A stretch of DNA of 49,739 nucleotides from Malassezia furfur (lineage: Eukaryota). Shown here piece by piece: positions 3,105 to 47,099 of the stretch (position 1 is the first letter of the stretch; every line of letters starts with the position of its first letter). The position numbers and the translations under genes are program-made. The notes below the pieces were generated by a model that did no database searches, was not told the DNA's origin, and saw only the letters and a program-made list of their open reading frames with translations. The stretch is taken from NCBI GenBank assembly GCA_052055015.1, contig JBQJIT010000031.1; one strand, 5' to 3'.

Positions 3105-4466
3105 ATGTCCTCTGATCTCGCAGCCTACGGCAAAGCACACGTCTCGACCGGTATCGGGCGCCAGACCGACTTTGTGTTCGAAGAGGGGCACGGCAGCTAT
3201 GTCACCACCGCAGACGGAAAGCGCCTGCTCGACCTGTCCTCGTACGTTGTGCATCCCGACTCACCTTCAGCGGTATCGGCGTCGTGAACGTCGGCCACTG
3301 CCACCCTACTGTGGCCAAGGCGGCCCAAGAACAGTGCGCCAAGATCACGCATGCCCAGGTGAACATCGCCTTCAGCGGGCCGCAGCTGCGTCTGTTGCAG
3401 GATCTCGAGGGGATTATGCCCTCCAAGGAACTCGACACCTTCTTCCTCGCCAACTCGGGCTCCGAAGCGATCGAGGGCGCCGTGCGCATCGCGCGGCACT
3501 CAACCAAGCGCCAAAATATCATCGTCGTGCAGGGTACGCATTTGCACCAAGCTCACACCGCCAGGCTCCTACCACGGGCGTACCGCCGGTGCTGCATCTA
3601 TGACGCGCTCCAAAACGGCATACAGCGCCGGCGTCGGGCCACTGATGCCGTGCGTGTACACCTCGCCCTTCCCGTACTATTCCCAGCTGCTTCTACAGCC
3701 GGATGCATCGGAAGACGAGATGGTCGACTACTGCCTCAAGCGTCTGCGCATGCTTCTCGACCAGGAGACAGCGCCGCGCGACACGGCTGCCATTTTCCTT
3801 GAACCGGTGCTAGGCGAGGGCGGGTACGTCCCCGCGCCTCCGGCGTTCATCCGCGGCATCCGCGACATTTGTGACGAGCATGGTATCGTGTTTGTCGCCG
3901 ACGAGATCCAAAGCGGGTTCGGACGCACTGGCAAGATGTTCGCGATGGAGTACTCGGGCGTTGTGCCAGACCTGATGACCATCGCCAAGGGCATTGCCAA
4001 CGGGTTCCCACTCAGCGCCGTTGTCGGCAAGAAAAAGTTTATGGATGCCATGCCGCCCGCCTCGCTCGGTGGCACCTACACGGGCAACGCGGTGGCATGC
4101 GCAGCAGCACAGGCCGTCCTTCGCGTGTTTCGCGAAGAAAAGGTGCTCGACAACGTCGCAGCACGCAGCAAGCAACTCTTTGATGGGCTTGCGGCTATCC
4201 GCCAAAAGCCGCACGGCAAGCTCATTGAGGATGTGCGAGGCCAGGGTTTAATGATCGCGGTTCAATTTACGTCCCCGACGAAGGAGCAGGTGCGAGGGCG
4301 CGTCGTCAAGGGGTGCACGGAACGCAACATGATTCTGCTTTCGACGAGCATCTTTGATGTGGTGCGCATCATTCCGCCGCTCACCATCTCCGAGCAGGAG
4401 ATGGATGATGCGATCCGTATCCTCGACGAGAGTATCGCAGATGCAGCGAAGCAGCTCGCGGCCTAG
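3105..4466 (+). CDS. Class III PLP aminotransferase, 4-aminobutyrate aminotransferase (GabT)-like, ~433 aa; introns 3242-3270 (29 nt), 3534-3564 (31 nt)
   Basis: Splicing restores LDLSSGIGVVNVGHCHP and QGSYHGRT. Also present: NSGSEAIE, EPVLGEGG, DEIQSGFGRTG, AKGIANGFPLS (PLP lysine) and GGTYTGN. Confidence 0.85.
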
Positions 4467-4676
4467 TGTGCGGCATCGCTTTCCGTAGATCGGACCCCTC
4501 CGCTCCCCCACACGCGCGCGTTCCCTGGCCCGATGCACGCCCGATACAGGGCCGGCGTGCATGACAGGGCGGTGGTGGATTGGCTGTGTAAACTCTACCA
4601 CTAAAAAGCCACGAGCGGAGCGCGTGCGCTTGCGGTCTTCTGCCGTCTCTATCTTTGTGCCCGCTGGCCCCGCGCG

Positions 4677-5499
4677 ATGGTGGGTTTGTGGCAGGTACCG
4701 TTGCTTTTCCTGACCGTACTGGCGGCCAGTGCGAGCTCTAAGGACCTCGCCAGCTCACAGGCGGCACCCGCTGCAGGCGTCTTGCAGCAGGTACCGCGTG
4801 CTGGTACGTCTCGCATCTTCTCACCCAGCACCGTCGGCTTCCGAGTCTCTTTCCCAGAAGTCGCGCCCGACGCACACGCTTGAGCGGCGCGTGACTCGAT
4901 CTGCGGAGCTGTCCACTATGTCACCTGTGGGTGTGTATGTTCCCGAAGTGTACGGCGTCAGGAACGCAGGCGACCGGGACGACACGTCGATTTACTACTA
5001 TGGCAGCGGTTTCCGCCCCGAAACCTCCGTCTTTTTGCTCGTGACCGGCTCTCCCGGCGTGGGTGATGGGCCACAGACCACTTACCTATACGAAGGGCCA
5101 TCCGAAGCGTACCTTGCCAATGTGCTCCGCACAGCCGATCTCCACGATGGCAACGGCACCATCACGGGTCGCTTCAACGTTGACTGCATGTACCCGAAAG
5201 GGTTTGGTAGTGGAGGATGGTGCAAGATTGGACGGATGACTACACAGGGCACGACGATGGTGTCGACCTACAACTCGACGATGCGCCCACAGAGCACCAT
5301 GACGCCCGTCTTGGGTCTGGTGGACCAGATGCGGCAGTCGACCGCCACGGGCATCCGCGAAGTGCACTTCCCTAAGACTCAGAGCAATGCGGACAACGCG
5401 GCATACCGCGCGGCGCCTCTCGCGATCGCCACAAGTCCGATGCTTGCAGCCTTATGGACGGCGCCCCTGGCGCTGCTCGTGGCACTGCTTTGCTTGTGA
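4677..5499 (+). CDS. Secreted, probably GPI-anchored protein of unknown function, ~265 aa; intron 4804-4828 (25 nt)
   Basis: Signal-peptide-like start MVGLWQVPLLFLTVLAASASS. The intron GTACGT...CTCACCCAG joins it in frame to the 4729 ORF. Dibasic LERR site, two Cys, Thr/Ser-rich stalk and a hydrophobic C-terminus (LAALWTAPLALLVALLCL). Confidence 0.7.
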
Positions 5500-5556
5500 A
5501 ATCAATATACCAGCCACACTAGGTGCGAAGAGATAGATGGAAATTGAATTGGAATT

Positions 5557-8500: not shown

Positions 8501-9166
8501 CGCACAACGCGCATGCCACGACCACCACCACCCATGGCGGCTTTGATGATCACGGGGAAGCCCACTTCCTTGATGAACGGCTCAGCGGCATCGTAGCTCG
8601 CAATCGGACCAGGCGTGCCGGGCACAATAGGGACCTGCGCATCACGCGCCAGGTCACGCGCCTTGGTCTTGTCTCCCAGAGAGTCAATCGTCTCGGGACG
8701 CGGGCCCACAAACGCAATCCCCGCCTGCTCGACCTTGCGCGCGAATTCGGGGTTCTCCGAAAGGAACCCGTAACCGGGATGAATCATATCGACCTTGTTT
8801 TCCTTCGCAATACGCACAATGTCATCCATGGCCAGATACGCAGCCACAGGCGACATGCCCTTGCCGACCTGGAATGCGTAATCGGCCTTGTACCGATGAG
8901 CCGACATGCGATCTTCATAGCTGTAGATTGCAACCGACTCCAGGCCGAGCTCATGCGCCGTACGGAAGATCCGGATAGCAATTTCCTAAGGGGTCAGTAT
9001 GCATTGCCATGCTTATACGTACACCACGGTTGGCGACCATCAGGCGGCGGAGAGGCACGCCGGACCGGCTGCGGAGACCATCCCGCACGGACTCCAAAGT
9101 ACGGAAGTCAAAGTCGGCAGTCGCCGCACCTTCATCCAAACTTTGTTCCGGTTTACTGCTTGCCAT
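5557..9166 (-). CDS. PYC1: Pyruvate carboxylase, ~1190 aa; intron 8986-9022 (37 nt)
   Basis: Splicing gives LMVANRG|EIAIRIFRTAHEL. Motifs: GGGGRGMR, ERDCSVQRRHQK, RDAHQS, WGGATFD, IKDMAG, HVHSHD and the biotinylation site AMKM. Confidence 0.97.
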
Positions 9167-9844
9167 CTTCGAGGACGAGAAACCTATACAGACCAGAGGG
9201 CAAAGGTCCTAGTCTCGCTAGCCAGGAGGGGGAGGACAAGCTATCGGGCTGGCCGCGATAAAAGTCCAAAGGGTCCTCTGGACCGCCGATTTCCCTGGCT
9301 CGTACACCGGTCCAAACGATTGGCGCGATCTCTCCAGCACTGCAGCACCGCGGACCGACGTGCAGCTGCTTTCAAAAAAAATCTCCACATAATGCCGAGC
9401 TGACACGGTGTCTCGCTAGACCACGCGCGGGCTTGGTACGTGCACGGTCCGGGTCCGATACGACCACGAACCAAGCATGCCAACACCCCATGCCACCAAG
9501 CACTAGCATTGCTGGCATTACACAAGACGCTCTCATTTGCCTAGGTTTCACGATTATCACCAACGTTCCAATATCATACAAATCGCTATTCTACAGATAA
9601 AAGCGTGATCAGAGCATGGTATAGGCACCCATAGCAGCTATACCTACACTCTGTTGGCGAAAGCCATCACAAGGAGAAAAATTGCTGAATCGTATAAAAC
9701 GAGTCAGACGATGTGGTTCGTTTTGTTTGCGATAAGCAAAAGTCTACGTCTCGGTAGGTACCTCAGTGACCGTAGAGCCTGTCCATGCAGAAAGATGAGG
9801 ATCCACGATGACGCACGCGCGCCCTATATACGTTTTGGGCGCGA

Positions 9845-9917: not shown

Positions 9918-9989
9918 ACCTGTTCGCTGCCGCGCAGGAGGCAGGATTCCCATACGGCTCCGCCGCTTGCCTAATTCACCACCGTCACC

Positions 9990-10768
9990 ATGTCTCTCGT
10001 GCCGCCTGACCCTTCGCAGCAGTTTGCTCACATTCTTCGGTACGTACCGAACGCCTTCGTCATGTGTTGAATATGTGCTAACCGTTTAGTCTGCTCAACA
10101 CCAACGTTGACGGCAAGCGCAAGATCATGTACGCCCTGACCGAGATCAAGGGTGTGGGTCGCCGCTACTCGAACATCGTCTGCAAGAAGGCCGATGTCGA
10201 CCTGCAGAAGCGGTACGTCTTACTAGAAGCCTTGCAAAGAGCAGGGGGGTGCAGCAGTTTTGCTTTGCGATGTTTCGTGCGTTTGCCCGTACGACACAGG
10301 CATGACCTTAAAAATGGCGCTGGACACTGAAACGGGTAAACTTTGCCGCCTGAATGCCACGAAGTCAGCGCCGAGTTGCCTGGAGTTTGTCTCCTCGTCT
10401 AGCGTCACATTTGCATCCTCGTCGCCATCCCCTTGCTCGAAGCAGACTTGTCGAAAGAACCATACTAACATCTCAGTGCTGGTGAGCTGAACTCGGATGA
10501 GCTCGAGCGCATTGTCAACATCCTCCAGTCGCCTGCCGAGTTCAAGATCCCCAACTGGTTCCTTAACCGGCAGAAGGACTTCACCACCGGCAAGGACACT
10601 CAGCTGCTCTCGAACGGCGTTGAGGCCAAGCTGCGTGAGGATCTCGAGCGCATGAAGAAGATGCGCATCCACCGTGGTCTCCGTCACTACTGGAACCTCC
10701 GTGCTCGTGGCCAGCACACCCGTACGACGGGTCGCCGCGGTCGCACTGTGGCCAACAAGAAGAAGTAA
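9990..10768 (+). CDS. RPS18: 40S ribosomal protein S18 (uS13), 154 aa; introns 10040-10089 (50 nt), 10213-10476 (264 nt)
   Basis: Spliced product: MSLVPP...[49 protein letters not shown]...[11 protein letters not shown]...[27 protein letters not shown]. Both donors are GTACGT; branch points GCTAAC and TACTAAC. Confidence 0.97.
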
Positions 10769-11270: not shown

Positions 11271-12320
11271 ATGACAATCGAAGTTCAGACTCCCCCGCCG
11301 TCGCCATCGGCGCCTGCAGCACCGCTTTCTGCTATCATTGACTCTGAGATCGACTACGAAGGTCTTGGTGGTAACTACCCGCTGCATATCAACATGATTG
11401 CCGGATCTCTGGCAGGAATTACTGAACATGCCGTCATGTTTCCTGTGGATCTTGTCCGGGTTCGTATCTGCATAATCTGACTTTTGCAGACTCGTATGCA
11501 AGTCTTGACGGCGTCGCCCGCCGCGACGTACAGTGGCATGACCGAGGCATTCGCCCGGATTAGCTCCGCAGAGGGCTTCAAGGGTCTCTGGAAGGGCATT
11601 GCGTCGGTCATTCTCGGCGCTGGCCCTGCGCACGCGCTCTACTTTGGCACCTACGAGCTGGTCAAAGATCACACGGGTGGCAATCGTGAGGGGTTGCAGT
11701 TGATGAGCACAGGTGTGGCTGGCGCGGCCGCTACCATTGTGTCTGACGCATTCATGAACCCGTTTGATGGTGCGTCGTTGCTCGCTTACCGCAGTGATCA
11801 AGCAGCGCATGCAGCTAGAGGGCAACCCCTACACGTCGGTGGTGAACTGTGCGCGTGATCTCTACAAGACCGAGGGGCTCCGTGCTTTCTATGTCTCATA
11901 CCCTACAACGCTGACTATGACGGTGCCTTTCACCGCAATCCAGTTCGCGACGTACGAATGGGCCAAGAAGCTGTTCAACCCAGCCGACTCCTACTCCCCC
12001 ATGACGCACGTGGTCGCTGGTGGCTTTGCCGGCGCCACGGCAGCTGCGCTCACAACTCCGTTGGATGTAGCCAAGACCCTGCTACAAACGCGTGGCTGCT
12101 CACCGGATCCTGCGATCCGGAATACCACAAGCATGGTGCAGGCGTTCAAAATCATTCAGCAGCGGGAGGGATACCGTGGCTTTATGCGTGGACTGACCCC
12201 GCGTATCTTTACCCACATGCCCTCGAATGCCTTGTGCTGGCTGGTACGTTTGCGCACGACTTACCCCAGTCCTACGAAAGCTTCCGCTTCATGCTGCGCG
12301 AGCAAAACTACATTGCATGA
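11271..12320 (+). CDS. MRS4: Mitoferrin-type mitochondrial iron carrier, ~322 aa; introns 11460-11489, 11770-11794, 12244-12269
   Basis: DYEGL...AGSLAGITEHAVMFPVD, GAGPAHALYFGTYE, DAFMNPFDVIKQRMQ, YVSYPTTLTMTVPF and TTPLDVAKTLLQ; three carrier repeats. Confidence 0.93.
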
Positions 12321-14495: not shown

Positions 14496-14722
14496 GGCAG
14501 ACGGTACCCCGGAGGGTACGGTCTGCCCGATCCAAATATTTCAACGTACTGCCACCCGTAGGGCAGCAGCGAGGGGCAAATCCTCCTGTATGGACAAAAG
14601 GGTCGCCGTGCAATGGGAGCATTCACCCCTCCCGCACCACATGCGTGAGCGCGTTGCGGAACGTCAAGGTCTGTCATGTTAGAACTGTCCTTGTAGGTCC
14701 ATTATCGAATACGTACAAGTAT
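14496..14722 (-). ncRNA. U1: U1 spliceosomal snRNA (~181 nt mature), interrupted by a spliceosomal intron at 14671-14716
   Basis: Spliced 5' end AUACUU|ACCUU. Helix H UUGACGU/ACGUUGA; SL1 with U1-70K-like loop GCUCACGCAU; SL2 stem GAGGGGUGAAU/AUUUGCCCCUC carrying the U1A motif AUUGCAC; SL3 GCUGCUGCCC/GGGUGGCAGU; Sm-like site AAUAUUUGG (14532-14540); terminal SL4 GGCAGAC-C-GUACCC/GGGUAC-C-GUCUGCC. A TATA box lies ~30 nt upstream. Confidence 0.92.
14671..14716 (-). other. 46-nt mRNA-type intron inside the U1 snRNA gene
   Basis: GTACGTATTCGATAATGGACCTACAAGGACAGTTCTAACATGACAG: the donor GTACGT most common in this window, branch TTCTAAC, acceptor CAG. Removal exactly restores the invariant U1 5' sequence. 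Confidence 0.88.
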
Positions 14723-14881: not shown

Positions 14882-15826
14882 CTATGGCGAATGATGCAGG
14901 GCCTCAGTTGCTTCGCTGCTTGTCTTTGCAATCGTCTCTTGGAGCGACTTGGGGCAACTCTCGACGAGACTCGAGAGCTTCGGCAGAATGCGTGAGAGGA
15001 AGAACTGCTGCGCGACTTGCGCTCCCTGCGTGTGAGCCAAACGAGTAGACATACCCTGTAGTGATAGATCGCACCCATCACCGCCTCAACACACGCGCCG
15101 CGCACCTTGAAGAGGCCTGTCTCTTGCGATCCGGTCGCAGGATCGACACGCTGGGGTCAGCTAGGCAGAAAGTACCTACAATTGTCGGGTGCCAACGCAT
15201 CACGCGCTCGAGTTGCAGCGAGCGGCCGACGTGGTCGCCGAGTGTCTGCGTCCGGAGGAGGTTGTCCACGCCCTGCGGCGACGAGAGGATATTTTGCAGG
15301 AACCGGATTTCAGCCTCGGGGAGCGATTCGGCGCGACCCGCCTTGGCGAGCACGTCGAACAGGAAGAGAGAGAGGTAGGTTTTCAGTGCGCGCCGGCCTG
15401 GGTGTGAGTGTACGCGTACGTACCGAGGAAGGCGAGACGTCGGTTATGACCTTGCATGCCGTACATCCAGCTCTCGTGCGTGAGCGCGGTCACGGCCAGT
15501 ACCGCATTGTCGCCCAGGAGCGCGTGTTGGTCGCCCGACAGCGAGCGGTACGAAGAAAACTGCTCGCTGTTGAGGAACGACAGCATATCCGCGGGCTTCA
15601 AGTCGCTGCCGAGCGCACCAGAGGACGGCTGCACCGACTGCTGCTGCGTATGTACCGTGGACTGTGCGCTGGGCGCAACGTTAGTTGCGGACGCGGTGGT
15701 GCGCAGGCCACAGGCGCGCAGCGCAAATGGCTGCGGTGCGCGCATAAGAGCTGGGGTGCGCGCGCTGCCGACGAGACGTGCGCGCGCCACGATACGTGTT
15801 CCTGTCCGGAAAGATGCGGTGCCCAT
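14882..15826 (-). CDS. MRPL15: Mitochondrial ribosomal protein mL57/MRPL15 (degenerate RNase III fold), ~286 aa; introns 15398-15423, 15151-15179, 15026-15054
   Basis: Arg/Ala-rich presequence; ALTHESW...HNRRLAFLGRRAL, VEAVMGAIYHYRGAQVAQQF. Three GT-AG introns join three ORF fragments. An alternative ATG is at 15832. Confidence 0.75.
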
Positions 15827-15995: not shown

Positions 15996-16979
15996 ATGTC
16001 TGTGGCGGAACCGTATGTGGCTGCGACTCACGCCAGACTTGCTCCTGCAGCTCCCAAGGCCGCCAACTGGGCGGATGATGACGCTGAGGATGGCGCTTGT
16101 ACGTTTCGCGCGACTCACACAGCTTCGAGCTCGCCGCGCGTCGAAGTGCGCGACGAAGGCAACGGTGTGCAGACCGTGATTGAATACCGCACCAACGCGG
16201 ATGGCAAGCCCGTTAAGGTGACGCGCCGCATCAAGCGGACGCTCGTGTCTACGCGCGTGAACCATGACGTGGCCGAGCGCAAGCAGTGGACTAAGTTTGG
16301 TCTCGAGAAGAACGCTGCTGCCGGCCCGCACGGTGGCACCACCTCGATCGGCGCCAATGTGCAGGTCAAACTCAGTGCGGGCGGAACGAAGGAGCCCGAG
16401 CAGGACCCGACCGATGCGATGCGCGAGAAGCTCGCGAACAAGCGCGTGCAGTGCCGTTTGTGCAAGGGCGACCACTACACGGCGCGCTGCCCGTACCGCG
16501 ATACGCTCGAGGCGATCCCCGGTGCGGGCGGCGAGACGCCAGAGGGCGAGGTTGCCAAGGCCGCGCTGCAGGCGGGCGATCCCGCGGCCGCCGCCAAGAT
16601 CAACCCGGCCGCGAGCCAGGCCCGTGCTGGGTTGGCGCCCGGCAAATACGTCCCGCCGAGCCTGCGTGCCGGCGCGGTGCCGACGGTGATGGGCAGCGGC
16701 GCGCCGCACCGCGATGACTCGTCGACGCTGCGTGTGACGAACCTGAGCGAGGACGTCGAGGAGGACGACCTGCGCGACCTTTTCCGTCGCTACGGCCGTG
16801 TGACGCGCATCTACCTCGGCCGCGACCGCGAGACGGGCGCGTGCAAGGGCTTTGCCTATGTCAACTTTGAGGACCGCGCGTCGGCGGATCTGGCGCGGCA
16901 AAAACTGGATGGTTTCCCGTACAGCAACCTGATCCTCAGCTGCCAGTGGTCGCAGCCGCGTGGGGAGCGTCCTACGTAG
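15996..16979 (+). CDS. TIF35: Translation initiation factor eIF3 subunit g, ~311 aa; probable in-frame 24-nt introns 16013-16036 and 16099-16122
   Basis: NWADD, AERKQWTKFG, CRLCKGDHYTARCPY zinc knuckle, KYVPPSLR and a C-terminal RRM (TLRVTNLSED...CKGFAYVNF). Confidence 0.95.
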   Translation: MSVAEPYVAATHARLAPAAPKAANWADDDAEDGACTFRATHTASSSPRVEVRDEGNGVQTVIEYRTNADGKPVKVTRRIKRTLVSTRVNHDVAERKQWTKFGLEKNAAAGPHGGTTSIGANVQVKLSAGGTKEPEQDPTDAMREKLANKRVQCRLCKGDHYTARCPYRDTLEAIPGAGGETPEGEVAKAALQAGDPAAAAKINPAASQARAGLAPGKYVPPSLRAGAVPTVMGSGAPHRDDSSTLRVTNLSEDVEEDDLRDLFRRYGRVTRIYLGRDRETGACKGFAYVNFEDRASADLARQKLDGFPYSNLILSCQWSQPRGERPT

Positions 16980-17021: not shown

Positions 17022-17788
17022 CTACGAAAAGAAGCTGGGGTTAGTGCGCAATGGTTACGTACGCGCGGTGGGGGTTCGGACCGAACAGATCGAGGCGCAG
17101 CTCGGGCAGCATGTCGGACTCGAGCAGGCGCAGCCGCTCCTCCAGCGTGTTGTTCAGCTGGATGCGCCCGGCGTGCCCGGTGAGGATCAGACCACCCGCG
17201 GAGTCCTTGCTGAGGCCGTCTTTGACTGAGACCTTGGTGTCGCGCCCAGTGATCTCCTTGTACCGCTTCACGGCCGAATCCGACACCTCTTGCACCAACT
17301 GCACGTCGCCAGAGCGTGCCGTGACTTCCACGGATGGCTCGACAAGGTCCAGTAGGCCCTGGAGCAGCAGATTTTCGAGCAGCTTCTTGTATTTGGCCTG
17401 GTCCTTAGACAGCTTCTTGAGCTGTTCTTTGGTCTTGTCAAACAGGCCCTCGAGGCGCTCCTCGCGGAGCTTGAGCACCTCGAGACGCGCCTTGTTGCTC
17501 TGGTTGGACTTGGCACTGCATTAGTAGGGGCACGCACATCTTCTGCTGCGTCTCGACCTGCTTCTTCTTCTTCTCGAACTGCGCATCCAGGTTCGAGCTC
17601 TCCTGCTGTACGATCTTGGCCTGCCGGTCAGCGATCGCACGGCTTCGACTACACACCTTCTCGATCGCAAACTCCTCGTCGGCCTTCACCTGGATCTCGC
17701 GCGCCTTCTCCTGCGCCTCCTGGCGAATGAACTCCACCATCTTCTTCAGCTCCGTGTTCACCTCTTCATCATTCATAGCGTGCGACAT
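17022..17788 (-). CDS. VMA4: V-ATPase V1 subunit E, 226 aa; introns 17621-17656 (36 nt), 17516-17537 (22 nt), 17035-17062 (28 nt)
   Basis: ELKKMVEFIRQEAQEKAREIQVKADEEFAIEK|AKIV, NKARLEVL and NTLEERLRLL...LFGPNPHRAFFS*. Confidence 0.95.
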
Positions 17789-18762: not shown

Positions 18763-19709
18763 ATGGCGTCTGGGGAACGGAGGCGCCTGCCTACGCTGCT
18801 CGAGGTGCTCGAGCGGCGCACAGCGGCGCCAGTCGACCTAGATGCGTTCTACCAGTTCTCCTATATGTGTAACGAGGCAGATGCCATCGACTTTTGGCTT
18901 GACGTGACAGAGCACGAGCGCATGTGCGCGATTTGTTTGTATTTGGACGACGACAGCGCACCCGTGCCACTGACCGGCGCCTGGCGTGGGAGCGGAAAGG
19001 ACCAGAATGCATTGTACTTGCATGTCGATCAGGCGGAGAAGGAGCCGCCGCGCGAGACTAAGATTGCACTCTTCGACCTGGTCGCCAATGCCCAGCGCGT
19101 ATACGAACGGTACCTTGTCCCGGGCGCCGCGCACGAGATTTTGCTGCCCGACACAGTGCGTGCGTCGATGGCGTGGCCATCCGAGACGCATGCCATGACG
19201 GGGAATGCCCAGGAGCTGCTACAACTCTTTCAGCTTCCACGCAAGTAGGTGGCCCACACTCACACAGCTATGTCTTCCAGCGCCTGGACACCGGCATGTA
19301 CTCTGCCTTTTTGGAGCAACATACCTTTTGCAACATCACGCGGTTTACCGCATGGGCTCGTTTGTCGGTTGGCTTACTGCTCTTTTGGGTCGCGCTCGCC
19401 GTGGGGTTCAGTATGGTGTTCCTCGACGCGCGGCGCTCGACGCGCGTATGGGTAGGTGCGTCGCTCATGCAGATTTTGCTTCCAATGGCTTTTGCCATGT
19501 ATTTTTTGACGGCCTACATGTACAATATTGACCCCGCCCTCGTTTTGGCGCGCCGCACCCAAGTCGCTCCACGCACCTACGTCCGCGTGGACGAACCGTT
19601 CGTATACCGCCAGCACTGCCTCCATGCCGCAAGTGCGGTGAGCGTTGCGGTGCTAGCCTGCGCCGCGTTCACTGTGCTGTTTGTTTTAGTGCCGGGCCAC
19701 CGCCTCTAG
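18763..19709 (+). CDS. RAX1: RAX1-like RGS-domain membrane protein, ~300 aa; introns 19245-19267 (23 nt) and probably 19452-19472 (21 nt)
   Basis: RLPTLLEVLERRTAAPVDLDAFY, AIDFWLDV, YLVPGAAHEILLP, three C-terminal TM segments, ending VPGHRL. Confidence 0.85.
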
Positions 19710-27628: not shown

Positions 27629-28491
<863 letters not shown>

Positions 28492-30877: not shown

Positions 30878-32708
30878 TTAGATATCCCATCCGTCATCGT
30901 CGTCTTGCCCCCATTCCTCGTCCGTACCCGGCTCGCCTTCCGCTTCTTCCTCAGCTCCGTACGCCGCACATGCGCCTTCGAGCGTCTCGCGCAGCTCGCG
31001 CAAGCCGTCGAGACCGCCGACGGCCCCCTCGGTTTCGTCCAATAGGGTCCGTGCGCCGCTGGCAACACCGTACGCCTCCAGCGGCTCCCGGCGGCTCACC
31101 ACGTGGGTCACCAAGGCACGCGCGTCGCGGAGCAGCGTCAGGGTATCGGGGGTCGTCCGTAACGACGCCATGGCTGGCATTGCGCTGGGCTTTGTGTGTA
31201 CCTCTTGTCCGCTAGTCAGCGGCCGCCCGTTTCGCGTGAGATTGCGGAAGATGGACGGATAGGCGCTTTGCAGCGGATAGGCAAGACGAGAATATGTGCT
31301 GGGTAAGCGGTACAACGTACACATGGAGCAAAGGGGATTGCGCCGGATTCCACTTGTGAACCGCGGCCAGCGTGGGCGTTTCCGCCATCGGGTCGGCGTC
31401 GCGTGCGACGACCATCTCGGCAAACGGTGCTGTGGGGGTCGGACGAACAACAGGAGAAGCATCCTCATGGTCATCCAGACCCGCGCGCATGCCTTGCGAG
31501 TATGAAAACGAAGTGTCGTGCCAATTTCGCCCGAGAACGGCCGCGGCTTCGGACGGGTCGGACTGAGGCGTGTCGATTCGCATGTTGCGCGCGGCAAACA
31601 TGGCCGCGATGAGCGCATCGGACGGGTCGGGCTTCGCACGAATAGCGGCGAGGAGCGGGGTAGGAAACACGCCACCGAGCTGCGCGACTTTGGTATCCTT
31701 GCGCCAGTTGAGTTGTGATACGATGCGGCCCCAGCTTTCAAGCTCGTGCAAGCGCGTACTGAGCGTGGCAGTTTCCATGTACGTCGCCATCACGGCACTG
31801 CGCTCGTACAGGTTGTCTGCATTGTAGTGTACATGTTCGCTTTGTGCCGCCTCGGTGCCCAACGGAACCTGCAGCGTCGCGAGATCGAGCGAGGCAGTAA
31901 GGGAGAGCACTTGGTTCATGGCATACACCTTGCGGAGTCGCTTACTCCGTTCATCATCTCCGGTGGGTGCACGGCTCGCGACCTGGAAGACGACGCGCTC
32001 CGTCTTGGGGTATTCATCGGCGAGCCACGCCAGGTACGCACCGTTCACGCCTGAAAACGCATCCGATGCACTTGAAGTAACCTGGAACGCCTGCATCAAG
32101 TCACTGTCCTCGGCAAGCCAGCGCACGTTGTCGTCTAGGATGGCATGCTCGCGTTCCATCGCCTGGGCTACGGCGTAGCCCTGTTCGTAGGTGTCAAAAG
32201 CCTGGACGCCTGGCTGCAGGAAAGCCGTGCCGTGCAAGCTGGGTGCACTCACAGGCACCAGGGACCGTGGGTGGAGCATGCATCGTGCATAGTCTGACCA
32301 GTACTGCAATGCACGGCCCCGTGGGGCGGCGCCATCCTCGGTCGCGGTGCCCTCGTCTTCGCGTCGTAGTTGATCGACGTACCAGCTGGACTCGATGGTC
32401 TCTCCGGTCTGAACTACCTCACCCTGCCACTTTTGACGCATTTCGTCGTCTTCTTCTGCGCCATACAAGGCGTTATGGGTGCGTAGCGTGCCAAACTCGG
32501 GCCTCACGTCGAAAAACAGCGCGCGGGGTGTAAACGTGGATTCGCCGTGCACGCCAAGCCCTTCGCGAAAGGATACGTCGTGGTCGACGAGGGGCACATT
32601 ATCCGATGGTCCGTACTCCATGTACGCCTCCTGGGTGTTCCAAAAGTGGGTCGCAACATGGTTCGCCGGCGTGCCGAAGGTGACATGCACCACCTCCTTC
32701 GGACGCAT
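30878..32708 (-). CDS. DML1: Misato/DML1 tubulin-like protein, ~602 aa; intron 31299-31320 (22 nt)
   Basis: KEVVHVTFG..ANHVATHFWNTQE, TFTPRALFFD, YWSDY...HPRS, AEDSDLMQAFQ, DEYPK and an acidic C-terminus. Confidence 0.9.
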
Positions 32709-32729: not shown

Positions 32730-35437
32730 ATGCCCGACGAGTGGCAGCCAGCGGCCGATTGGCACGCGCTCGGCGATGCCTACTACCGGCGCACGACGCA
32801 ATATGAGATGGTGTGGCCGATGCAGCATCTTGACCAGTTCTGGGTTGCCTCGTCGATGGACGGGGGCCTGATCGGTACGTCCCAATCGCTCACATAGCTC
32901 TGCTCCTTGACCCGACGCAGCTCGTGGCTGTCGGCGAGATGGGCTCGGTGGAACCGAAGATCAAGGTGTACACGGGCGTTGGGCAGCTGCTCGAGACACT
33001 TCCTGTACGTCTCTGACTGACGCAGTGGGATAGCGCGCGTGTCGTGCAGTTTGGTTTCACCTGGCGCGACGAGTTGGCGGCGGTGACCGACGACGGGCAG
33101 GTGCGGCTATACGCACTCTTGGACGCGGGCCTCAAAGGCCCTGAATGGAGCGAGGCGACACAGAGTACACAGTATACTGTGCTGTCGCTGGGCGAGCCGG
33201 CCAGCGAGATTGGCGTCGCGAGTGCGGTGGTTTTGCCGACGTGTGTGTATGCGATGCTGCGGAACGGCACCGTTGCGCAGTGCTTCTTCCCTGGGGTCGA
33301 CGAATCTTACGCGACCGATTCACCGTGGGCGGACCGCAAGGCGCCACTCCCGACGCAACAGCACCCCGCGGTGCCGGCCGACCCCAAGGACATAACTACG
33401 TGGAGTGTCTGTGCGGCAACACATACAGTGTACGTCGCGACGCCCGAAACACTGTATGCGCTACATGGAGATACCTACACGCCTTTTTCAATTGATGTGC
33501 GGCTCGATGCGGTCTGCGCGAGCCCCAATGGGAAACTGCTCGCACTCATTGCGGAACAGAAGCTGCGCGTGGTCAAGGCTGACCTGTCGCGCACACTGCG
33601 CGAATGGGATATGACGACCTCGGAGGCCTACGCGGCGAGCCGTGGCGCACCCCCCATGCTTGCACCGCTCGCTGAACCGTCGTTCAACGCGCCGGTGCAC
33701 GACAAGGGCGGCATCGGCGGCACAGGTGCGACGCGGCTGGCATGGTGCGGCGACGACACCGTGGCGATAGCGTGGAGCGGCTCGGTGCAGGTGATCGGTC
33801 CCCTCGATGATCCGCTCACGCTGCCTGTGCCCGGCGCGGTGCACCTGTTTGGTCACCGCGACGGGCTGCAGCTCGTCCACGCCGAGGCGCACGAGTACCT
33901 TGACCGCGTCGACGCGGCAACCGAGGCGGCGCTGCGTCCAGGCTCGACACACGTCGCGACCATCCTGCTGGAGGCCTCGCAGCTTGCCCAGAAGAACAGC
34001 CCGCGTGCGTACGAGGCGGTCGAGGCGCTGCGCAAGGACCTCGGGCACGCTGTGCACGTGTGCGTGTCGGCAGCGTCGCAGGCATGGGACGTGGCGACGC
34101 AGCAAGAGTTGCTCAAGGCCGCGCTTTTCGGCAAGACGTTTCTCGACGCATACGACAGCACGGCGTACCTGCGCACGGCGCGGACGCTGCGGGTGCTGAA
34201 CGCGGTGCGTGACTATCACGTAGGCATCCCGGCGCGCTATGATGCCATGCAGCGGCACGGCGCGTCGATGCTGCTCTACCGGCTGTGTGTGCGGCGCATG
34301 CACCACCTTGCTGAGCGGGTCTGTGACTACATCCGCGTGCGTCCCGACGAGGTACTCAAGCACTGGGCACGCGCCAAAGTGGCACACATGCGCGGTGACA
34401 CGGCGCAACTCGCGGAGCTAATCATCGCCAAGTTTGAGGCCGCTGGCGCGCTCAACTTTGCAGAAATTGCGCTTACAGCGTGGCACGCTGGGCACCCGCG
34501 CCTCGCGACGATGCTGCTCGACCACGAGGCGCGTGCGGTGGGACAGGTGCCGCTGCTGTTGCACATGCGCGAGGACCGGCTCGCGCTGCAGCGTGCGGTC
34601 GAGTGTGGCGACGCGGATCTGGTCTACTATGTCCTTTTCCGGCTGCAGCAGCGCATGTCGCGCGGCGAATTCTTCCGGGTGGTGCAGGCGCCGCTCGAGG
34701 CGCCCGATGTGCCGCTGCCGAGCAAGACGGTGGGTGTGCGGCCGCGGTGCGATTCTACGTACGCCGCGCTCGCCGCGCGTCTTCTGGAGCGATATGCGGT
34801 GCAGCAGGACCACGAGCTGCTGCGTGATTTCTACTTCCTAGACGACCGCAGCGCGTCGCAGGCGATGCTGTGCATCGCCGAGGCGCCCACCGACGTGGCA
34901 CACTACGACGAGCGCGTCGCTGCGCTGCGCACCGCGGCCAAGCACTTTGCCGACGACCGCCAACATACCCAAGACGCGCGGCTTTCAGAAGAGGCCGCAT
35001 CTTTGCTGGGCTTCCAGGCGGGCCTAGACAAGGAGCTCACTACGATGGGCGTCCGTGCGGCGGGCGACTCGCTCGTTGGGCTGCCGCTGATGCGCACCAT
35101 CGAGGTGTGCCTGCAGCACGGCCTGCATAAGCGCGCCGAGCGCCTGAAGCACGAATACAAGGTGTCAGACCGGATGTACTTTGCCGCCCGGACCCATGCG
35201 CTGATCGCGGCGCAGGATTGGCCCGGCCTCACCAAGTGTGTCGGGAAGCGGCCGCCCGGCGGCTTTGAGCCGGTGGTGAGCATGCTGCTGCACGCTGGGC
35301 ATGTCAGCGAAGCGCGCCGCTTTGCGCGCCTCGGCGCCGCCGACAAGGGTAGTCGGCACGCGCTGCAGGCGCTTGTGGAGCGCAGCCCGATGGAAGAGCA
35401 CAAGGCTCAGTTGCGTGCTGCAATCTCGCCTACGTAG
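32730..35437 (+). CDS. VPS16: HOPS/CORVET subunit VPS16, ~887 aa; introns 32875-32897 (23 nt), 33005-33025 (21 nt)
   Basis: PAADWHALGDAYYRR...Y.M.W, GGLIAL, SPNGK, WCGDD, LLKAALFGK, LRVLNAVR, HWARAK, QVPLLL and GDADLVYYVL. Confidence 0.92.
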
Positions 35438-39249: not shown

Positions 39250-39704
39250 TGTACGCCGAGTTTCTTTTCCATCGCGGTATGGATATCGGGCGCGTCGCCG
39301 GACACGCCGGACGGCAAGAAGTCGGCCGTGTCGAGCTCCTCGTCGCGCCCGTCAAGAATGTCAAGGTGCACCTGCGCGACGCCGCGCGCGGGGATATGCG
39401 GGTTCTTGGAAACGATCTTGCGCTCCATCATCGTTCGCACGGGCATGCCAAGTCCAAACACATTGCGTTGCGTCGCGAGCTTCCAGTTGCGCTGCGTTGC
39501 GTCCCAGTGCTCCAGGCGGTGCTGCACAGGGTGGTAGCTGGACGCGGCGGTTTCTGCCTGCAGACTGCGGAGGCCGTGTCGCATGGTGTCGTGGACACCA
39601 ATCTCGCTGTGTGCCGTTGTATGCACATCGGCGTGGGTATGTGTGGGCGCGTTGCGCGGCACAATCTCCAGCGAGGTCTGGGTGAGCGGGCGCCGACGCA
39701 CCAT
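39246..39704 (-). CDS. UMP1: Proteasome maturation factor UMP1, ~144 aa; probable in-frame 24-nt intron 39678-39701 directly after the ATG
   Basis: HDTMRHG, HPVQHRLEHW, FGLGMPVRTMME, VHLDILDGRDEEL and IHTAMEKKL. Confidence 0.9.
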   Translation of the reverse strand: MVRRRPLTQTSLEIVPRNAPTHTHADVHTTAHSEIGVHDTMRHGLRSLQAETAASSYHPVQHRLEHWDATQRNWKLATQRNVFGLGMPVRTMMERKIVSKNPHIPARGVAQVHLDILDGRDEELDTADFLPSGVSGDAPDIHTAMEKKLGVH

Positions 39705-42700: not shown

Positions 42701-42840
42701 GGCTGCAGGAGTTGTTGCGCCAAATGACGCAGGCCGCCAAGGCGATCGGGAATGTGGAGCTCGAACAGAAATTCGAGCAGAGCCTCGCGAAGCTGGAGCG
42801 TCCCAACTCGATCATCTTCAGCCCGTCGCTGTATCTGTAG
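39781..42840 (+). CDS. MTR4: Exosome-associated RNA helicase MTR4
   Basis: [45 protein letters not shown], arch domain, C-terminal FSPSLYL; lacks the Ski2 N-terminal extension. Confidence 0.96.
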
Positions 42841-42866
42841 ACAAGAAGTACATGTGCATGCCTATG

Positions 42867-44528: not shown

Positions 44529-44633
44529 CGTTGTCGGCGCCACACTTTTTTCCTAAGTGGAGGTCACGTGGAAGTACGGTGGCTGCGCCTGCCTGCCCCG
44601 GGGCCTCCACGCCGCCTTATCCCCGCACGCGCC

Positions 44634-45833
44634 ATGGTGCTCCAGCCTGCACCGCCGGTGAACGCGGGTGTGCGCCCGCCGCCGCCCGCCCACTTTGGCA
44701 GGTACCATTTCCCGTCAAATCTGGCCGCCCTAGGGCCTGCCGTGGCGTTCTCGCCGCGCGTCATGCCGCGTACCGCCGAGCCACGCGCACCGCCGCCCAC
44801 TGAAGCGCCACCGCCGACCGGCCCTGTGCGGATGTACGGCCCAGACGTCGGTGATCACTTTGCCCATCATACGCCGCAGAACGGTGATGCAGGCACGCAA
44901 GCACTGCCCACTTCGACGCTGTCGCAGTGGATCGACGGCGATTCGCGCCAGCAACTCTCGAGCCTGGACCTGTACGTCCACATGCACCGCACCGCTGCCA
45001 AGCTCGGCACCTTTGTGCAGGACACGACACCCGGTACACAGGAGCTTGCGCCGCCCGCGCTCAAGCTAGATCACGCCACCGCCAAGGCGCTGGAGCTCAC
45101 CGCACCGACACACACGCTGTCGATCGCGTGTGATTGCGTCGCGCCGCGCGCACGCCTGGATTTGTACGTGGTAGAGGCACAGCGTGCCTCGCATCCACAG
45201 GAACTGCCTGCGTCCGTGAGTCACGGTGCGCCGCATCCCCGTGGCTGGCGTCTGGCGTCTGCCGACGTGGTGCACGGCCTCGAAATGGGCGTCGTCCTGC
45301 CGCTGGTCCTCGACGAGCAGTGGACGCCGGCAGAGAGTGCCGGCCCGCTGCACCTCGCAGTCGTTATGGAGGCACTCGATGAGGACGGACATGTCCTTTC
45401 CGAACCGAATGCCGAGACAATGTACTTTACCGCCGAGCGCGTCGCGGACAGCGGCGCGTGGCGTTTGCACAACGGTGCACAAACCGTGTACATCCACGGT
45501 TTCGCGATGCAGCTGCACCAGTTGTTTGGCATGACGGCGCACCAGGATGGCCCAACGGTGCACGAGGGCGAGGAGGACACGTCGCATGCCATGGGGCTCG
45601 ACACGGACCTGAACAACGATGCCACCGAGTGTCCTATTTGCATGACGCTCGAGCCAACAACCATTCTGTTGCCATGCACGCACGCGCTGTGTCTCGAATG
45701 TGCCACGCGCATCCGCGAGAGCGTCGAAAAGTCGCGCACGCACGACGTCAACAATGGGCGTGCGCCGCGGCTGCGGTATGCATGCCCCATCTGCCGTGCG
45801 TCGATCCAGACGATGCTGGCATTGTCACGCTAA
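44634..45833 (+). CDS. C-terminal RING E3 ligase, MGRN1/LOG2-like
   Basis: QTVYIHG...LHQLFGM precedes ECPICMT...LLPCTHALCLECA...CPICR. Confidence 0.78.
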   Translation: MVLQPAPPVNAGVRPPPPAHFGRYHFPSNLAALGPAVAFSPRVMPRTAEPRAPPPTEAPPPTGPVRMYGPDVGDHFAHHTPQNGDAGTQALPTSTLSQWIDGDSRQQLSSLDLYVHMHRTAAKLGTFVQDTTPGTQELAPPALKLDHATAKALELTAPTHTLSIACDCVAPRARLDLYVVEAQRASHPQELPASVSHGAPHPRGWRLASADVVHGLEMGVVLPLVLDEQWTPAESAGPLHLAVVMEALDEDGHVLSEPNAETMYFTAERVADSGAWRLHNGAQTVYIHGFAMQLHQLFGMTAHQDGPTVHEGEEDTSHAMGLDTDLNNDATECPICMTLEPTTILLPCTHALCLECATRIRESVEKSRTHDVNNGRAPRLRYACPICRASIQTMLALSR

Positions 45834-45849
45834 GTGTAGTATAGAAGAG

Positions 45850-47099
45850 CTAGATCACATCGTCCATCTCGAGGTCTTCTTCGTCGTCGGCACCCGTGTC
45901 CGCAGGCTTCTCCGCGGGCTTCTCCGTGGGCTTCTCCGCGGCGCCTTCGTCGGTGCGCGCACGCTTTTGGGGGGCGCCGTCGGCGGTCTCGGGCTCAGCA
46001 GCGCGTTTTGCGTCGTGGTCGAGCTGCGAGGCATACCGCGTGTAGTAGTCGACGTCGACGTCGACGTCTAGGGCCTCGGGCGCGGCACTCGCCTCGGCGA
46101 CACTCGCCTCCTCGGCGCGGCGCTCGGCATCGACCTTGCCGAGGCCGGTCTGCTCGCCGCTCACCGTAGACGCCAGGTGCCACGCAGGCAATGTGTTTTG
46201 CGCACGCTGCGCCTCTTCCTCGCGGGCGCGCTGCTGCTGCCGCACCAGTTCGTTGGCGGGATCGGTGCCACTGAGCTCGACGGTGACCTGCGGCACCTTG
46301 GGCTTGGGCGGAGGGCGCGCACCGGGCACGAGCTGCGTATCGTCGCGCTCCGTCTCGGCTTTCCACGGCTGTTCCGCGGCATTCTTGGCGAGCCACGCGT
46401 GGATGTCCATGGGCGGCAGCGCGACGCCTTCGAGGCTGCGCAGCGCCTGCTGCACGCCGTGCAGCTGCTCGTTAAATCGGGTCAGGGTATCTTTGGATTT
46501 GCGCACATCATCCGCATCCTCGTTGTCAACCAGCTCCGTGAAGCAGCCGGGCACCTCACACACGAACACGTTGCGCATCGGGTCGAGGAGGTGGGCGACT
46601 TCGAGCGTGGAGTAGGACCGCTTGCAACGCGGGCACACGTATCCCTTGTTGTCGAGGCCGTTGCGCAGACGCATGTCAATGTCGCGGCGCATCGCAAGCA
46701 TGCGCCACTTGGTCACGTCCAGCACCTGCTTGTAGTCAATGTAGTAGTAAGTACGCGCGAATGAGCGGCTCATCGCGCCCTCCTTGGTCTCCTGCGTGCG
46801 GTGGATGGACAGAATGCGGTCCTCAATCATCTTGGCCGCGAGGGAGCCGAGGTCGCGGGCCTGCAAACCCACGCGCCGCGCGAGTACATCACTGGGAATC
46901 CTGCGTGAGCACGAAAAGCGACGACCTACACGACGACGCTCACGAGCTGGTCGATGAGCAGGATGTGCCCATCGTCATAAAACAGGCGTGCAATCACCTG
47001 AATCAACCGGCGGATTGCCGCCATCTGCGCCGGCGTCGCGGGCTGCGGCTCTGCCACGCCCGGCGCGGCGCTCGGCGCATTCGGGGCCGGCGACGCCAT
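45850..47099 (-). CDS. TFA1: TFIIE large (alpha) subunit, ~406 aa; intron 46901-46929 (29 nt)
   Basis: RLIQVIARLFY...LIDQL, YYYIDY...DVTKWR, zinc ribbon GYVCPRC...FVC...C, QNTLPAWH..STV and an acidic tail. Confidence 0.92.

What the first reader, a model, noticed from the sequence alone, without database searches (positions are those of the whole stretch)
3242..46929. Pervasive ultra-short spliceosomal introns (21-31 nt) with a CTNAC branch point next to the acceptor
Seen: of the 39 mRNA introns I reconstructed, 35 are 21-31 nt. Donors are mostly GTACGT, GTGCGT, GTATGT or GTAGGT. The branch is most often CTCAC, otherwise CTGAC, CTTAC or CTAAC, only a few nt before the AG, with no pyrimidine tract. 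Known: Malassezia introns are reported to be short, but most fungi have a mode near 50-60 nt; ~20-25-nt introns are typical of ciliates, nucleomorphs and microsporidia. Inference: with ~15 nt from donor to branch A, simultaneous U1 and U2 binding is sterically tight, suggesting a modified spliceosome. Gene predictors with larger minimum intron lengths will mis-annotate these genes.
Basis: partly seen in the sequence, partly recalled or inferred. Interest (0 to 1): 0.7.

Follow-up and report, generated by a model that had tools for sequence, protein, structure and literature searches.

The report
Minimum-size introns in a skin yeast
The genes of this Malassezia skin yeast carry real introns only 21 to 31 bases long, which stop sharply at a floor of 21, and the splicing protein that normally grips the pyrimidine run near an intron's end has lost much of its RNA-gripping surface, so this lab-friendly yeast could show how a full-size splicing machine handles the smallest introns.

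Summary
Confirmed. The window is from a two-subgenome Malassezia (furfur group) assembly. I count 42 introns; 37 of 41 mRNA introns are 21-31 nt. The second subgenome (89% identical) keeps every GT and AG and 161 of 164 branch-core bases. Indels that break frame fall only inside introns (15 of 17, against 0 of 5 in coding DNA). Short Malassezia introns are already published (mean 30 bp, RNA-seq supported). Not found in my searches: (1) a hard geometry, with branch A at position 16 or later and the AG ending 5 or more nt after it, giving a 21-nt floor (138 candidates vs 4 expected in 380 kb); (2) a largely complete spliceosome with canonical U1, U2 and U6 pairing arms; (3) genus-wide loss of the RNA-contact face of U2AF65 RRM1, while its fold and protein-binding motifs, the U2AF35 zinc fingers and SF1 stay intact. 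Likely mechanism: SF1 and U2AF35 read branch and AG as one block, with U2AF65 mainly a bridge. How U1 and U2 fit 15 nt apart is inferred, not shown. The window's own U1 gene has a 46-nt intron after base 6; the scan noted this arrangement before in other fungi.

The parts
3242..3270 (+). intron, 29 nt, class-III aminotransferase
   Evidence: frameshift if kept; 23 nt in homeolog with signals kept
3534..3564 (+). intron, 31 nt, aminotransferase
   Evidence: Pfam 35-122|126-401
4804..4828 (+). intron, 25 nt, secreted protein of no Pfam family
   Evidence: ORF 265 vs 68 aa; identical in homeolog
8986..9022 (-). intron, 37 nt, pyruvate carboxylase
   Evidence: ORF 1190 vs 71 aa; 36 nt in homeolog
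9664..9796 (-). U4 snRNA gene
   Evidence: Rfam RF00015 48.1 bits, over cut-off; conserved in homeolog
10040..10089 (+). intron, 50 nt, RPS18
10213..10476 (+). intron, 264 nt, RPS18 (long exception)
   Evidence: Pfam 2-41|44-128; no Rfam match inside
11460..11489 (+). intron, 30 nt, mitochondrial carrier (GTTCGT donor)
   Evidence: in-frame stop; Pfam 4-30|31-92
11770..11794 (+). intron, 25 nt, mitochondrial carrier
12244..12269 (+). intron, 26 nt, mitochondrial carrier
14496..14722 (-). U1 snRNA gene: 6-nt exon 1 (14722-14717), intron, exon 2 (14670-14496); TATA about 30 nt upstream
   Evidence: Rfam RF00003 36.3 bits on exon 2, below cut-off; 38.5 bits in homeolog
14671..14716 (-). 46-nt spliceosomal intron inside the U1 5'-splice-site pairing arm
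   Evidence: GTACGT..CTAAC..CAG kept in both subgenomes; 9 of 46 bases differ vs 4 of 175 in exon 2 (counted from the alignment)
15026..15054 (-). intron, 29 nt, RNase-III-like mitoribosomal protein
   Evidence: 28 nt in homeolog
15151..15179 (-). intron, 29 nt, same gene
   Evidence: 28 nt in homeolog
15398..15423 (-). intron, 26 nt, same gene
16013..16036 (+). intron, 24 nt, eIF3g (3n, no stop)
   Evidence: signals conserved only
16099..16122 (+). intron, 24 nt, eIF3g (3n, no stop)
   Evidence: signals conserved only
17035..17062 (-). intron, 28 nt, V-ATPase E
17516..17537 (-). intron, 22 nt, V-ATPase E (CTAAT branch; CTGAC in homeolog)
   Evidence: Pfam 26-52|55-199
17621..17656 (-). intron, 36 nt, V-ATPase E
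   Evidence: Pfam 1-25|26-52
19245..19267 (+). intron, 23 nt, RGS-domain membrane protein
   Evidence: ORF 307 vs 161 aa
19452..19472 (+). intron, 21 nt, same gene (3n, no stop)
   Evidence: signals conserved only
19714..19734 (-). intron, 21 nt, TBC-domain-like gene (3n, no stop)
   Evidence: identical in homeolog; weakest case
21559..21580 (+). intron, 22 nt, CPSF73/Ysh1
   Evidence: ORF 835 vs 51 aa
23758..23780 (+). intron, 23 nt, CPSF73/Ysh1
   Evidence: 22 nt in homeolog
27247..27271 (+). intron, 25 nt, Mad2
27403..27425 (+). intron, 23 nt, Mad2
27982..28005 (-). intron, 24 nt, Siw14-type phosphatase
   Evidence: 23 nt in homeolog; Pfam 39-73|76-153
28116..28141 (-). intron, 26 nt, same gene
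   Evidence: Pfam 1-35|39-73
29036..29058 (+). intron, 23 nt, ATP synthase g
   Evidence: 22 nt in homeolog
29252..29274 (-). intron, 23 nt, EXPERA protein, GAG acceptor
   Evidence: extends ORF from 152 to 181 aa; signals and GAG kept in homeolog
29366..29386 (-). intron, 21 nt, EXPERA (3n, no stop)
   Evidence: signals conserved
29432..29454 (-). intron, 23 nt, EXPERA, AAG acceptor
   Evidence: 25 nt with CAG in homeolog
29593..29616 (-). intron, 24 nt, EXPERA (3n, no stop)
   Evidence: signals conserved
29674..29698 (-). intron, 25 nt, EXPERA
   Evidence: 24 nt in homeolog
29934..29957 (-). intron, 24 nt, pterin-4a dehydratase (3n, no stop)
   Evidence: signals conserved, middle diverged
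30430..30453 (+). intron, 24 nt, Dib1
   Evidence: spliced product 142 aa like orthologues
30525..30550 (+). intron, 26 nt, Dib1
   Evidence: Pfam 9-31|32-133
31299..31320 (-). intron, 22 nt, Dml1/Misato
32875..32897 (+). intron, 23 nt, Vps16
   Evidence: ORF 887 vs 55 aa
33005..33025 (+). intron, 21 nt, Vps16 (floor size, in-frame stop)
   Evidence: ORF 887 vs 87 aa
35538..35563 (-). intron, 26 nt, glutamate-cysteine ligase
39678..39701 (-). intron, 24 nt, Ump1, directly after the ATG (3n, no stop)
   Evidence: identical in homeolog
46901..46929 (-). intron, 29 nt, TFIIE alpha
   Evidence: ORF 406 vs 57 aa; 28 nt in homeolog

Best explanation
These are ordinary U2-type spliceosomal introns shrunk to a physical floor: a 6-nt donor, a free spacer, a CTNAC branch whose A sits at position 16 or later, and an AG ending 5-9 nt after that A (16 + 5 = 21). 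They are spliced by a largely complete spliceosome with canonical snRNA pairing arms (shown by sequence). Because branch and AG touch, there is no room for a pyrimidine tract. SF1 and U2AF35 read branch and AG as one 9-11-nt block, and U2AF65, whose first RRM has lost its RNA-contact face, acts mainly as the protein bridge between them (sequence loss shown; loss of binding inferred). The acceptor is then largely fixed by distance from the branch, which fits conserved GAG and AAG acceptors (inferred). The 15 nt upstream of the branch A leave 4-5 unpaired bases between the donor helix and the branch helix. My best guess (about 0.45, inferred) is a handover in which U1 and the full U2 snRNP do not sit stably on one intron together, with position 16 the smallest loop the U6-donor and U2-branch helices tolerate.
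For: Introns real: GT 0/82, AG 0/82 and branch core 3/164 mismatches between subgenomes, vs intron middles 134/431 and coding DNA 2688/25345; non-3n indels 15 of 17 in introns vs 0 of 5 in coding DNA; Pfam continuity. Floor: in 379,853 bases outside the window, first-branch position 14:0, 15:1, 16:34, 17:28; lengths 19:0, 20:0, 21:25; AG ending 4 nt after the branch A in 1 and 5 nt in 95 of 154 donor+branch pairs. No homeolog intron falls below 21 nt although 11 of 42 changed length. Machinery: U2, U5, U6, U4, U1; U1-70K, U1A/U2B'', SF3B4, p14, RBM39, Cwc2, Snu17 and SR-like RRMs recognised by eye; U1C, Luc7, Slu7, SF3b1, SF3A2, FF-domain, Cir_N and HCNGP families. U2AF65 contacts named in PMC4786784, 19 Malassezia-group rows vs 101 other fungal rows: R146 6 vs 97, Q147 5 vs 94, K225 0 vs 94, R227 3 vs 100, G338 1 vs 99. 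RNP aromatics: Y152 4/20 vs 99/101, F197 9/20 vs 100/101, F199 8/20 vs 100/101, Y302 4/20 vs 101/101. Alternating core positions are kept and a model of a relative's protein still folds as U2AF65. UHM columns 0.91 kept, ULM Trp and UHM RXF kept; U2AF35 zinc fingers 0.94 and 0.99 kept; SF1 ULM, helix hairpin and KH-QUA2 align to human SF1 at E 3e-67. A bridge role for U2AF65 is already proposed for S. pombe (PMC8624252 passages).
Against: No RNA reads of this genome and no binding data. RRM2 keeps V254 18/19, D256 17/19, K260 18/19 and an aromatic at F304 19/19, so U2AF65 may still bind RNA through a re-tuned RRM2; this genome's copy also keeps Y152. RRM1 is the most diverged domain overall (identity to outgroup consensus 0.39 vs 0.61 in the next 40 rows), so part of the signal is general fast evolution. 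My control on other RRMs was weak: a strict RNP1 pattern matched 17 of 35. Eight of the 19 Malassezia-group hits have no species name. The floor comes from a motif scan limited to strong donors and YAG acceptors; two shorter candidates (16 and 18 nt, 0.5 expected) were not resolved. The M. globosa locus gave only 4 of 16 candidates at 32 nt or less. Stentor splices with branch A at position 10 (PMC9505925), so 16 is not a universal limit.
Confidence: 0.66

Rival explanations
1. Real introns, conventional assembly, with U2AF65 still an RNA-binding factor whose RRM2 (and perhaps RRM1) has changed specificity to bind the GC-rich spacer upstream of the branch or exon sequence. U1 and U2 co-occupy thanks to small untested changes in U1/U2 proteins.
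For: Several RRM2 changes are shared across the genus rather than random (N289D in 10 of 11 named rows, K300R in 10 of 11); RRM2 contacts V254, D256, K260, F304 kept; S. pombe tracts often lie upstream of the branch (PMC8624252).
Against: The spacer diverges at 31% between subgenomes and has no base bias (A17 C30 G29 T25); RRM1 surface residues vary freely between species.
Confidence: 0.2
2. The 3' end is handled by a U2AF65-independent route like the human SPF45/RBM17-SAP30BP pathway for short introns with truncated tracts; U2AF65 is a decaying relic.
For: An HCNGP (SAP30BP-family) gene is present in two copies; the human pathway exists (10.1101/784868, search listing only).
Against: U2AF65 UHM and ULM, U2AF35 and SF1 are strongly conserved, which fits a working SF1-U2AF65-U2AF35 trimer. 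SPF45 was not looked for.
Confidence: 0.08
3. The segments are mostly retained or are coding insertions or assembly artefacts, as with the inefficient microsporidian introns.
For: No reads of this genome; 8 of 42 are 3n without stop or homology check; microsporidian tiny introns splice at about 25% median efficiency (cited in PMC13644364).
Against: Retention truncates essential genes (Dib1 40 aa, Ysh1 51 aa, TFIIE alpha 57 aa); frame-breaking indels only inside them; no enrichment of 3n lengths (49/43/40); 99% of M. sympodialis introns RNA-supported.
Confidence: 0.03

Closest known systems
Short introns of Malassezia sympodialis (Zhu et al. 2017, PMC5389616; passages, Table 2 and supplement legend seen); 'very short introns' in review PMC7426719 (passage)
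   Same: Same genus, same size class (mean 30 bp, 5350 introns, 99% RNA-seq supported), same mis-annotation by default predictors.
   Different: The passages seen give sizes only: no branch geometry, floor or spliceosome analysis. Figure S8 is a picture I could not see.
Stentor coeruleus 15-16-nt introns (PMC9505925, parts 1-3 of 6 read)
   Same: 5-nt tail after branch A, canonical snRNA pairing arms, mostly complete core.
   Different: Stentor has branch A at 10-11, fixed length, AU-rich introns without branch consensus, no SR proteins and no Cwc25 glycine plug. Here the lariat is 16 nt or more, signals are strong, SR-like proteins are present and Cwc25 starts MGAG.
Myxobolid and dicyemid introns, median 22-27 bp (PMC13644364, parts 1-2 of 3 read)
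   Same: Same length, no pyrimidine tract, canonical U2.
   Different: Their signals are reduced to GTa..AG and U2AF1/2 are reported conserved; here signals are strong and U2AF65 RRM1 is degenerate. That paper's list of lineages under 30 bp (ciliates, microsporidia, dicyemids) omits Malassezia in the parts read.
S. pombe Prp2/U2AF59 as SF1-U2AF35 bridge (review PMC8624252, passages)
   Same: Branch close to AG, tract often absent, trimer reads branch and AG together.
   Different: S. pombe mean branch-AG distance is 13 nt and its U2AF65 is described as conserved; here the distance is 5 nt and the RRM1 face is lost.
Introns in snRNA genes of Rhodotorula hasegawae (Takahashi 1993, 1996; titles in the reference list of PMC2396436 only)
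   Same: A spliceosomal intron in a conserved part of the U1 gene of a basidiomycete yeast.
   Different: I did not see the paper, so I cannot say the position is the same; earlier scan notes report an intron after base 6 in other fungi.

Membership tests
U2-type spliceosomal intron | GT..AG termini under selection | tested here: met
   0/82 and 0/82 mismatches between subgenomes
U2-type spliceosomal intron | Branch site able to pair with U2 GUAGUA | tested here: met
   CTNAC/CTNAT in 42 of 42, core 3/164 mismatches; U2 canonical
U2-type spliceosomal intron | Donor able to pair with the U1 arm and U6 ACAGAGA | tested here: met
   GTRNGT-type donors; U1 arm canonical once its intron is removed; U6 canonical; mismatch at +4 as in budding yeast
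U2-type spliceosomal intron | Removal restores the conserved reading frame | tested here: met
   8 of 42 uninformative (3n, no stop, no homology check)
U2-type spliceosomal intron | Excised from RNA as a lariat | not testable with these tools
   No reads of this genome; published RNA-seq support exists for M. sympodialis
Metazoan-type U2AF65/pyrimidine-tract 3' splice site | Pyrimidine tract between branch and AG, bound by intact RRM1-RRM2 | tested here: not met
Reduced-spliceosome tiny-intron systems (microsporidia, nucleomorphs; features recalled) | Broad loss of snRNP proteins or U1 | tested here: not met
   All five snRNAs and nearly all factors sought are present; RED_N not found, with no positive control
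Stentor-type fixed-length tiny introns | One or two lengths; branch A at 10-11; 5-nt tail | tested here: not met
   5-nt tail met (84 of 132); lengths spread 21-31 and branch A at 16 or later
SPF45/RBM17-dependent short introns | SPF45 orthologue and dependence on it | not tested
   Only the SAP30BP family was sought and found
U12-type intron | Extended U12 donor and branch consensus (recalled) | tested here: not met
   None of the 42 donors fits

The most novel reading that the evidence does not exclude
Malassezia has turned U2AF65 RRM1 into a pseudo-RRM and splices thousands of 21-26-nt introns by a route in which U1 and the U2 snRNP never co-occupy an intron (U2 engaged across the exon or after U1 release, U6 taking the donor directly). 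The sharp edge at branch position 16 would be a direct genomic readout of the smallest lariat a human-like spliceosome can close. The U2AF65 change would have come first: an unnamed deeper-branching relative has a degenerate U2AF65 and short branch-AG spacing but 37-45-nt introns (5 candidates in one 8-kb locus).
Probability: 0.3. Interest if true: 0.8.

Novelty: new variant of a known kind. Interest (0 to 1): 0.6.

Why it matters
How a multi-megadalton spliceosome handles introns under 30 nt is open: human assembly needs about 50 nt between donor and branch (PMC6692369). The known tiny-intron lineages are ciliates, parasites and nucleomorphs, mostly hard to engineer (recalled). M. furfur and M. 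sympodialis have targeted gene deletion (abstract of PMC5654937). A yeast with thousands of ciliate-size introns, strong readable signals, a sharp 16+5 floor and one visibly remodelled factor makes the question directly testable by genetics and cryo-EM. The U2AF65 pattern is a natural separation of its RNA-binding and bridging roles, relevant to a human cancer-mutated factor. In practice, predictors and aligners need a minimum intron of 20 nt or less, and U1 is missed because of its own intron.

Tried and rejected
Candidate 44702-44733 looked like an intron but loses its AG in the homeolog and the ORF is open through it: rejected. A conserved 21-nt candidate with branch at 13 in an Mrd1-like gene is better read as the start of a ~140-nt intron with a weak C/D snoRNA match (E 0.24). 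Other apparent early branches had a second branch motif at 16-17. U1 with a re-programmed 5' arm, or U1 loss: seven genome searches failed because the gene is split by an intron; the arm is canonical. A U1-like motif pair in L177/L178 had no Rfam match and reads as an opposite-strand intron near a carrier gene. Altered U2 branch-pairing to suit CTCAC: U2 is canonical. Loss of METTL16 to explain non-A at donor +4 (idea from a search listing): the family is present. Stentor-type loss of the Cwc25 plug: kept as MGAG. The DNA self-search did not list the homeolog; it was found through RRM hits. The pair C21/C79 gave no alignment passing the filter, so 7 of 8 pairs were used. In one search only the 39 of 80 loci of 5 kb or more were scanned. 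A Cwc2 structure comparison failed on frame and was not repeated. No complex prediction was run (textbook pairs). Literature: Malassezia+U2AF+intron gave 0 papers; Malassezia+spliceosome+introns gave 10 with 9 listed, none on this by title or abstract. Subscription papers are not searched, and figure S8 of PMC5389616 could not be seen.

Full report
Source. The window is contig C31 of a 13.7-Mb, 1856-contig assembly that holds two subgenomes about 86-92% identical. Its U2AF65 is 99% identical to a cluster whose named members are Malassezia furfur and M. brasiliensis. Contig C37 is the homeolog of the window, 89% identical over about 45.9 kb. This gave a built-in conservation test.

A donor..CTNAC..YAG scan gives 33 candidates in the 20-29 nt bins against about 3 expected. 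Gene models give 41 mRNA introns plus one in U1; 37 are 21-31 nt, median 24.5. Spliced Dib1 is 142 aa, like the five orthologues printed beside it. Pfam positions continue across junctions that change frame. Between subgenomes, GT and AG never differ (0/82 each), the branch core differs at 3/164, intron middles at 134/431 and coding DNA at 2688/25345. Fifteen of 17 intron indels are not multiples of three, against 0 of 5 in coding DNA. Limits: 8 introns are 3n with no stop or homology check, and no RNA of this genome was seen.

Geometry. In 379,853 bases outside the window, 631 strong donors gave 138 candidates of 21-31 nt (4.0 expected), 18 of 32-45 (5.0), 6 of 46-60 (4.0), 11 of 61-100 (10.8) and 29 of 101-160 (10.7). 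The edge is sharp: branch A at 14:0, 15:1, 16:34, 17:28; length 19:0, 20:0, 21:25. An AG ends 4 nt after the branch A in 1 and 5 nt after it in 95 of 154 donor+branch pairs. Candidates conserved in 194,041 aligned columns of 7 homeolog pairs, the window included, show the same edge (14:0, 15:0, 16:21 of 204). Eleven window introns changed length between subgenomes and none went below 21. Two candidates of 16 and 18 nt (0.5 expected) are unresolved. The scan needs strong donors and YAG, so weaker introns are under-counted. Acceptors GAG and AAG occur, and the GAG is kept in the homeolog.

Other species (39 of 80 loci were 5 kb or more). A locus 98% identical to the M. arunalokei cluster gave 10 of 23 candidates at 32 nt or less. 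One identical to a member of the caprae/equina/nana cluster (M. sympodialis by my recall) gave 15 of 27, mostly 22-24 nt. M. globosa was less clear (4 of 16). An unnamed, more distant cluster gave 1 of 10, with five candidates of 37-45 nt and branch-AG distances of 5-9. Agaric-like control loci mostly had more candidates at 40-80 nt.

The machinery is largely conventional. U2 (124 bits, GUAGUA intact), U6 (ACAGAGA intact), U5 and U4 pass Rfam cut-offs. U1 escaped seven searches because it lies in this window (minus strand, 14722-14496) and is split by a 46-nt intron after base 6. Exon 1 (ATACTT) and the start of exon 2 (ACCT) together match the Rfam U1 arm, and the intron differs at 9 of 46 bases between subgenomes against 4 of 175 in exon 2. 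Earlier scan notes report the same arrangement in other fungi, and a U1 intron is published for Rhodotorula hasegawae (title seen in a reference list). U1-70K, U1A/U2B'', SF3B4, p14, RBM39, Cwc2, Snu17 and SR-like proteins were recognised by eye among RRM hits (labels recalled). U1C, Luc7, Slu7, SF3b1, SF3A2, FF-domain, Cir_N, HCNGP and METTL16 families are present. RED_N was not found, with no positive control.

The clear change is in U2AF65. I aligned this genome's protein with 120 hits. The top 19 are Malassezia by name or cluster (11) or by rank only (8). Human numbers were placed through the PDB alignment with numbering recalled. Of the RNA contacts named in PMC4786784 (passages and part 2 of 9 read), those on the RRM1 side are lost: R146 6/19 vs 97/101 in other fungi, Q147 5/19 vs 94/101, K225 0/19 vs 94/101, R227 3/19 vs 100/101; G338 after RRM2 is 1/19 vs 99/101. 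V254, D256, K260 and F304 are kept (one hit in the query's own cluster dropped). The RNP aromatics (role recalled) Y152, F197, F199 and Y302 are kept in 4, 9, 8 and 4 of 20 rows against 99, 100, 100 and 101 of 101. Losses alternate with conserved core positions along the strands. An AlphaFold model of a relative's protein keeps three RRM-type folds, and its best Foldseek matches are U2AF65. Of columns at least 90% conserved elsewhere, Malassezia rows keep 0.61 in RRM1, 0.71 in RRM2 and 0.91 in the UHM; the ULM Trp and UHM RXF remain. U2AF35 zinc fingers keep 0.94 and 0.99, including, by my reading, the contacts listed in PMC7505975 (passages). Its N-terminal LASI[FY] segment, which that paper says does not touch RNA, is missing in all 11 scorable Malassezia-group rows and present by strict pattern in 76 of 94 others. 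SF1 aligns to human SF1 across ULM, hairpin and KH-QUA2. Against this reading: RRM1 is also the fastest-evolving domain overall, RRM2 keeps its core contacts and shows shared substitutions, and my control on other RRMs was weak (17 of 35 by a strict pattern).

Mechanism. Shown by sequence: strong donor and branch signals, a 16+5 floor, no tract, canonical snRNA arms, selective loss of the RRM1 face. Inferred: SF1 and U2AF35 bind branch and AG as one block and U2AF65 joins them through UHM and ULM, an extreme form of the bridge role proposed for S. pombe (PMC8624252 passages). Inferred and weaker: with the donor helix on +1 to +6 and the branch helix from about +11, only 4-5 bases are free, against about 50 nt needed in human extracts (PMC6692369 passages). 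U1 and the full U2 snRNP therefore probably hand over rather than co-occupy (about 0.45). Rivals are a re-tuned RNA-binding U2AF65 with conventional assembly (0.2), an SPF45-type bypass (0.08) and retention or artefact (0.03).

What is known. Curated M. sympodialis introns average 30 bp with 99% RNA-seq support, against 65 bp and 48% in the automated set (PMC5389616). M. globosa automated sets average 76-79 (PMC4634964 passages). M. restricta was annotated with a 15-20 nt minimum (PMC6473144). So short introns in the genus are known. Stentor shares the 5-nt tail but has a 10-11-nt lariat (PMC9505925). Myxobolids share the size but have weak signals and reportedly conserved U2AF (PMC13644364). 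I found no paper holding Malassezia, U2AF and intron together and none on its branch geometry among the listings. Subscription journals and figure S8 of PMC5389616 were not seen.

Verdict. Real U2-type introns of a known short-intron genus, with an apparently undescribed hard size floor and a genus-wide remodelling of U2AF65. New variant of a known kind; interest 0.6, mainly because it makes tiny-intron splicing testable in a transformable yeast.

Noticed in passing
window 14496-14722 (-): U1 snRNA gene split by a 46-nt spliceosomal intron after base 6, inside the arm that pairs with 5' splice sites. The intron is about twice the usual length here. Loop I departs from the Rfam consensus at several positions.
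   Followed up: partly
window 9664-9796 (-): U4 snRNA gene about 5 kb from U1; U1, U2 and U4 each have a TATA-like box about 30 nt upstream.
   Followed up: partly
L001 1500-1692, L271, L272, window 14496-14670: Sm-site regions of U1, U2 and U5 look atypical (purine or C interruptions of the U run); the U1 site differs between subgenomes.
   Followed up: no
L152 844-1599 (-): U2AF35 lacks the N-terminal LASI[FY] segment in all 11 scorable Malassezia-group rows; it might clear room for SF1 one base upstream (speculation).
   Followed up: partly
window 10213-10476 (+): RPS18 keeps a 264-nt intron (267 in homeolog) with no Rfam match; an excess of 101-160-nt candidates (29 vs 10.7) suggests a small class of long, perhaps RNA-hosting introns.
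   Followed up: partly
L099 8482-8620 (+): About 140-nt intron in an Mrd1-like gene with a weak C/D-box snoRNA match (E 0.24) and a decoy branch+AG 21 nt after the donor, kept in both subgenomes.
   Followed up: partly
L194, L195: Unnamed Malassezia-like metagenome contigs with degenerate U2AF65 but 37-45-nt intron candidates: a possible intermediate state.
   Followed up: partly
G000 (C31/C37 and other pairs): Assembly holds two subgenomes at 86-92% identity, as expected for a hybrid (recalled for M. furfur).
   Followed up: yes
L181 1365-1473 (+): tRNA gene with a 30-nt insert in the anticodon loop (Rfam 42 bits).
   Followed up: no
window 4677-5499 (+): 265-aa protein with signal-peptide-like start and hydrophobic end; its long exon has no Pfam match.
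   Followed up: no
G000: RED_N (PF07808) not found; Smu1/RED serve short introns in human. Inconclusive without a positive control.
   Followed up: partly
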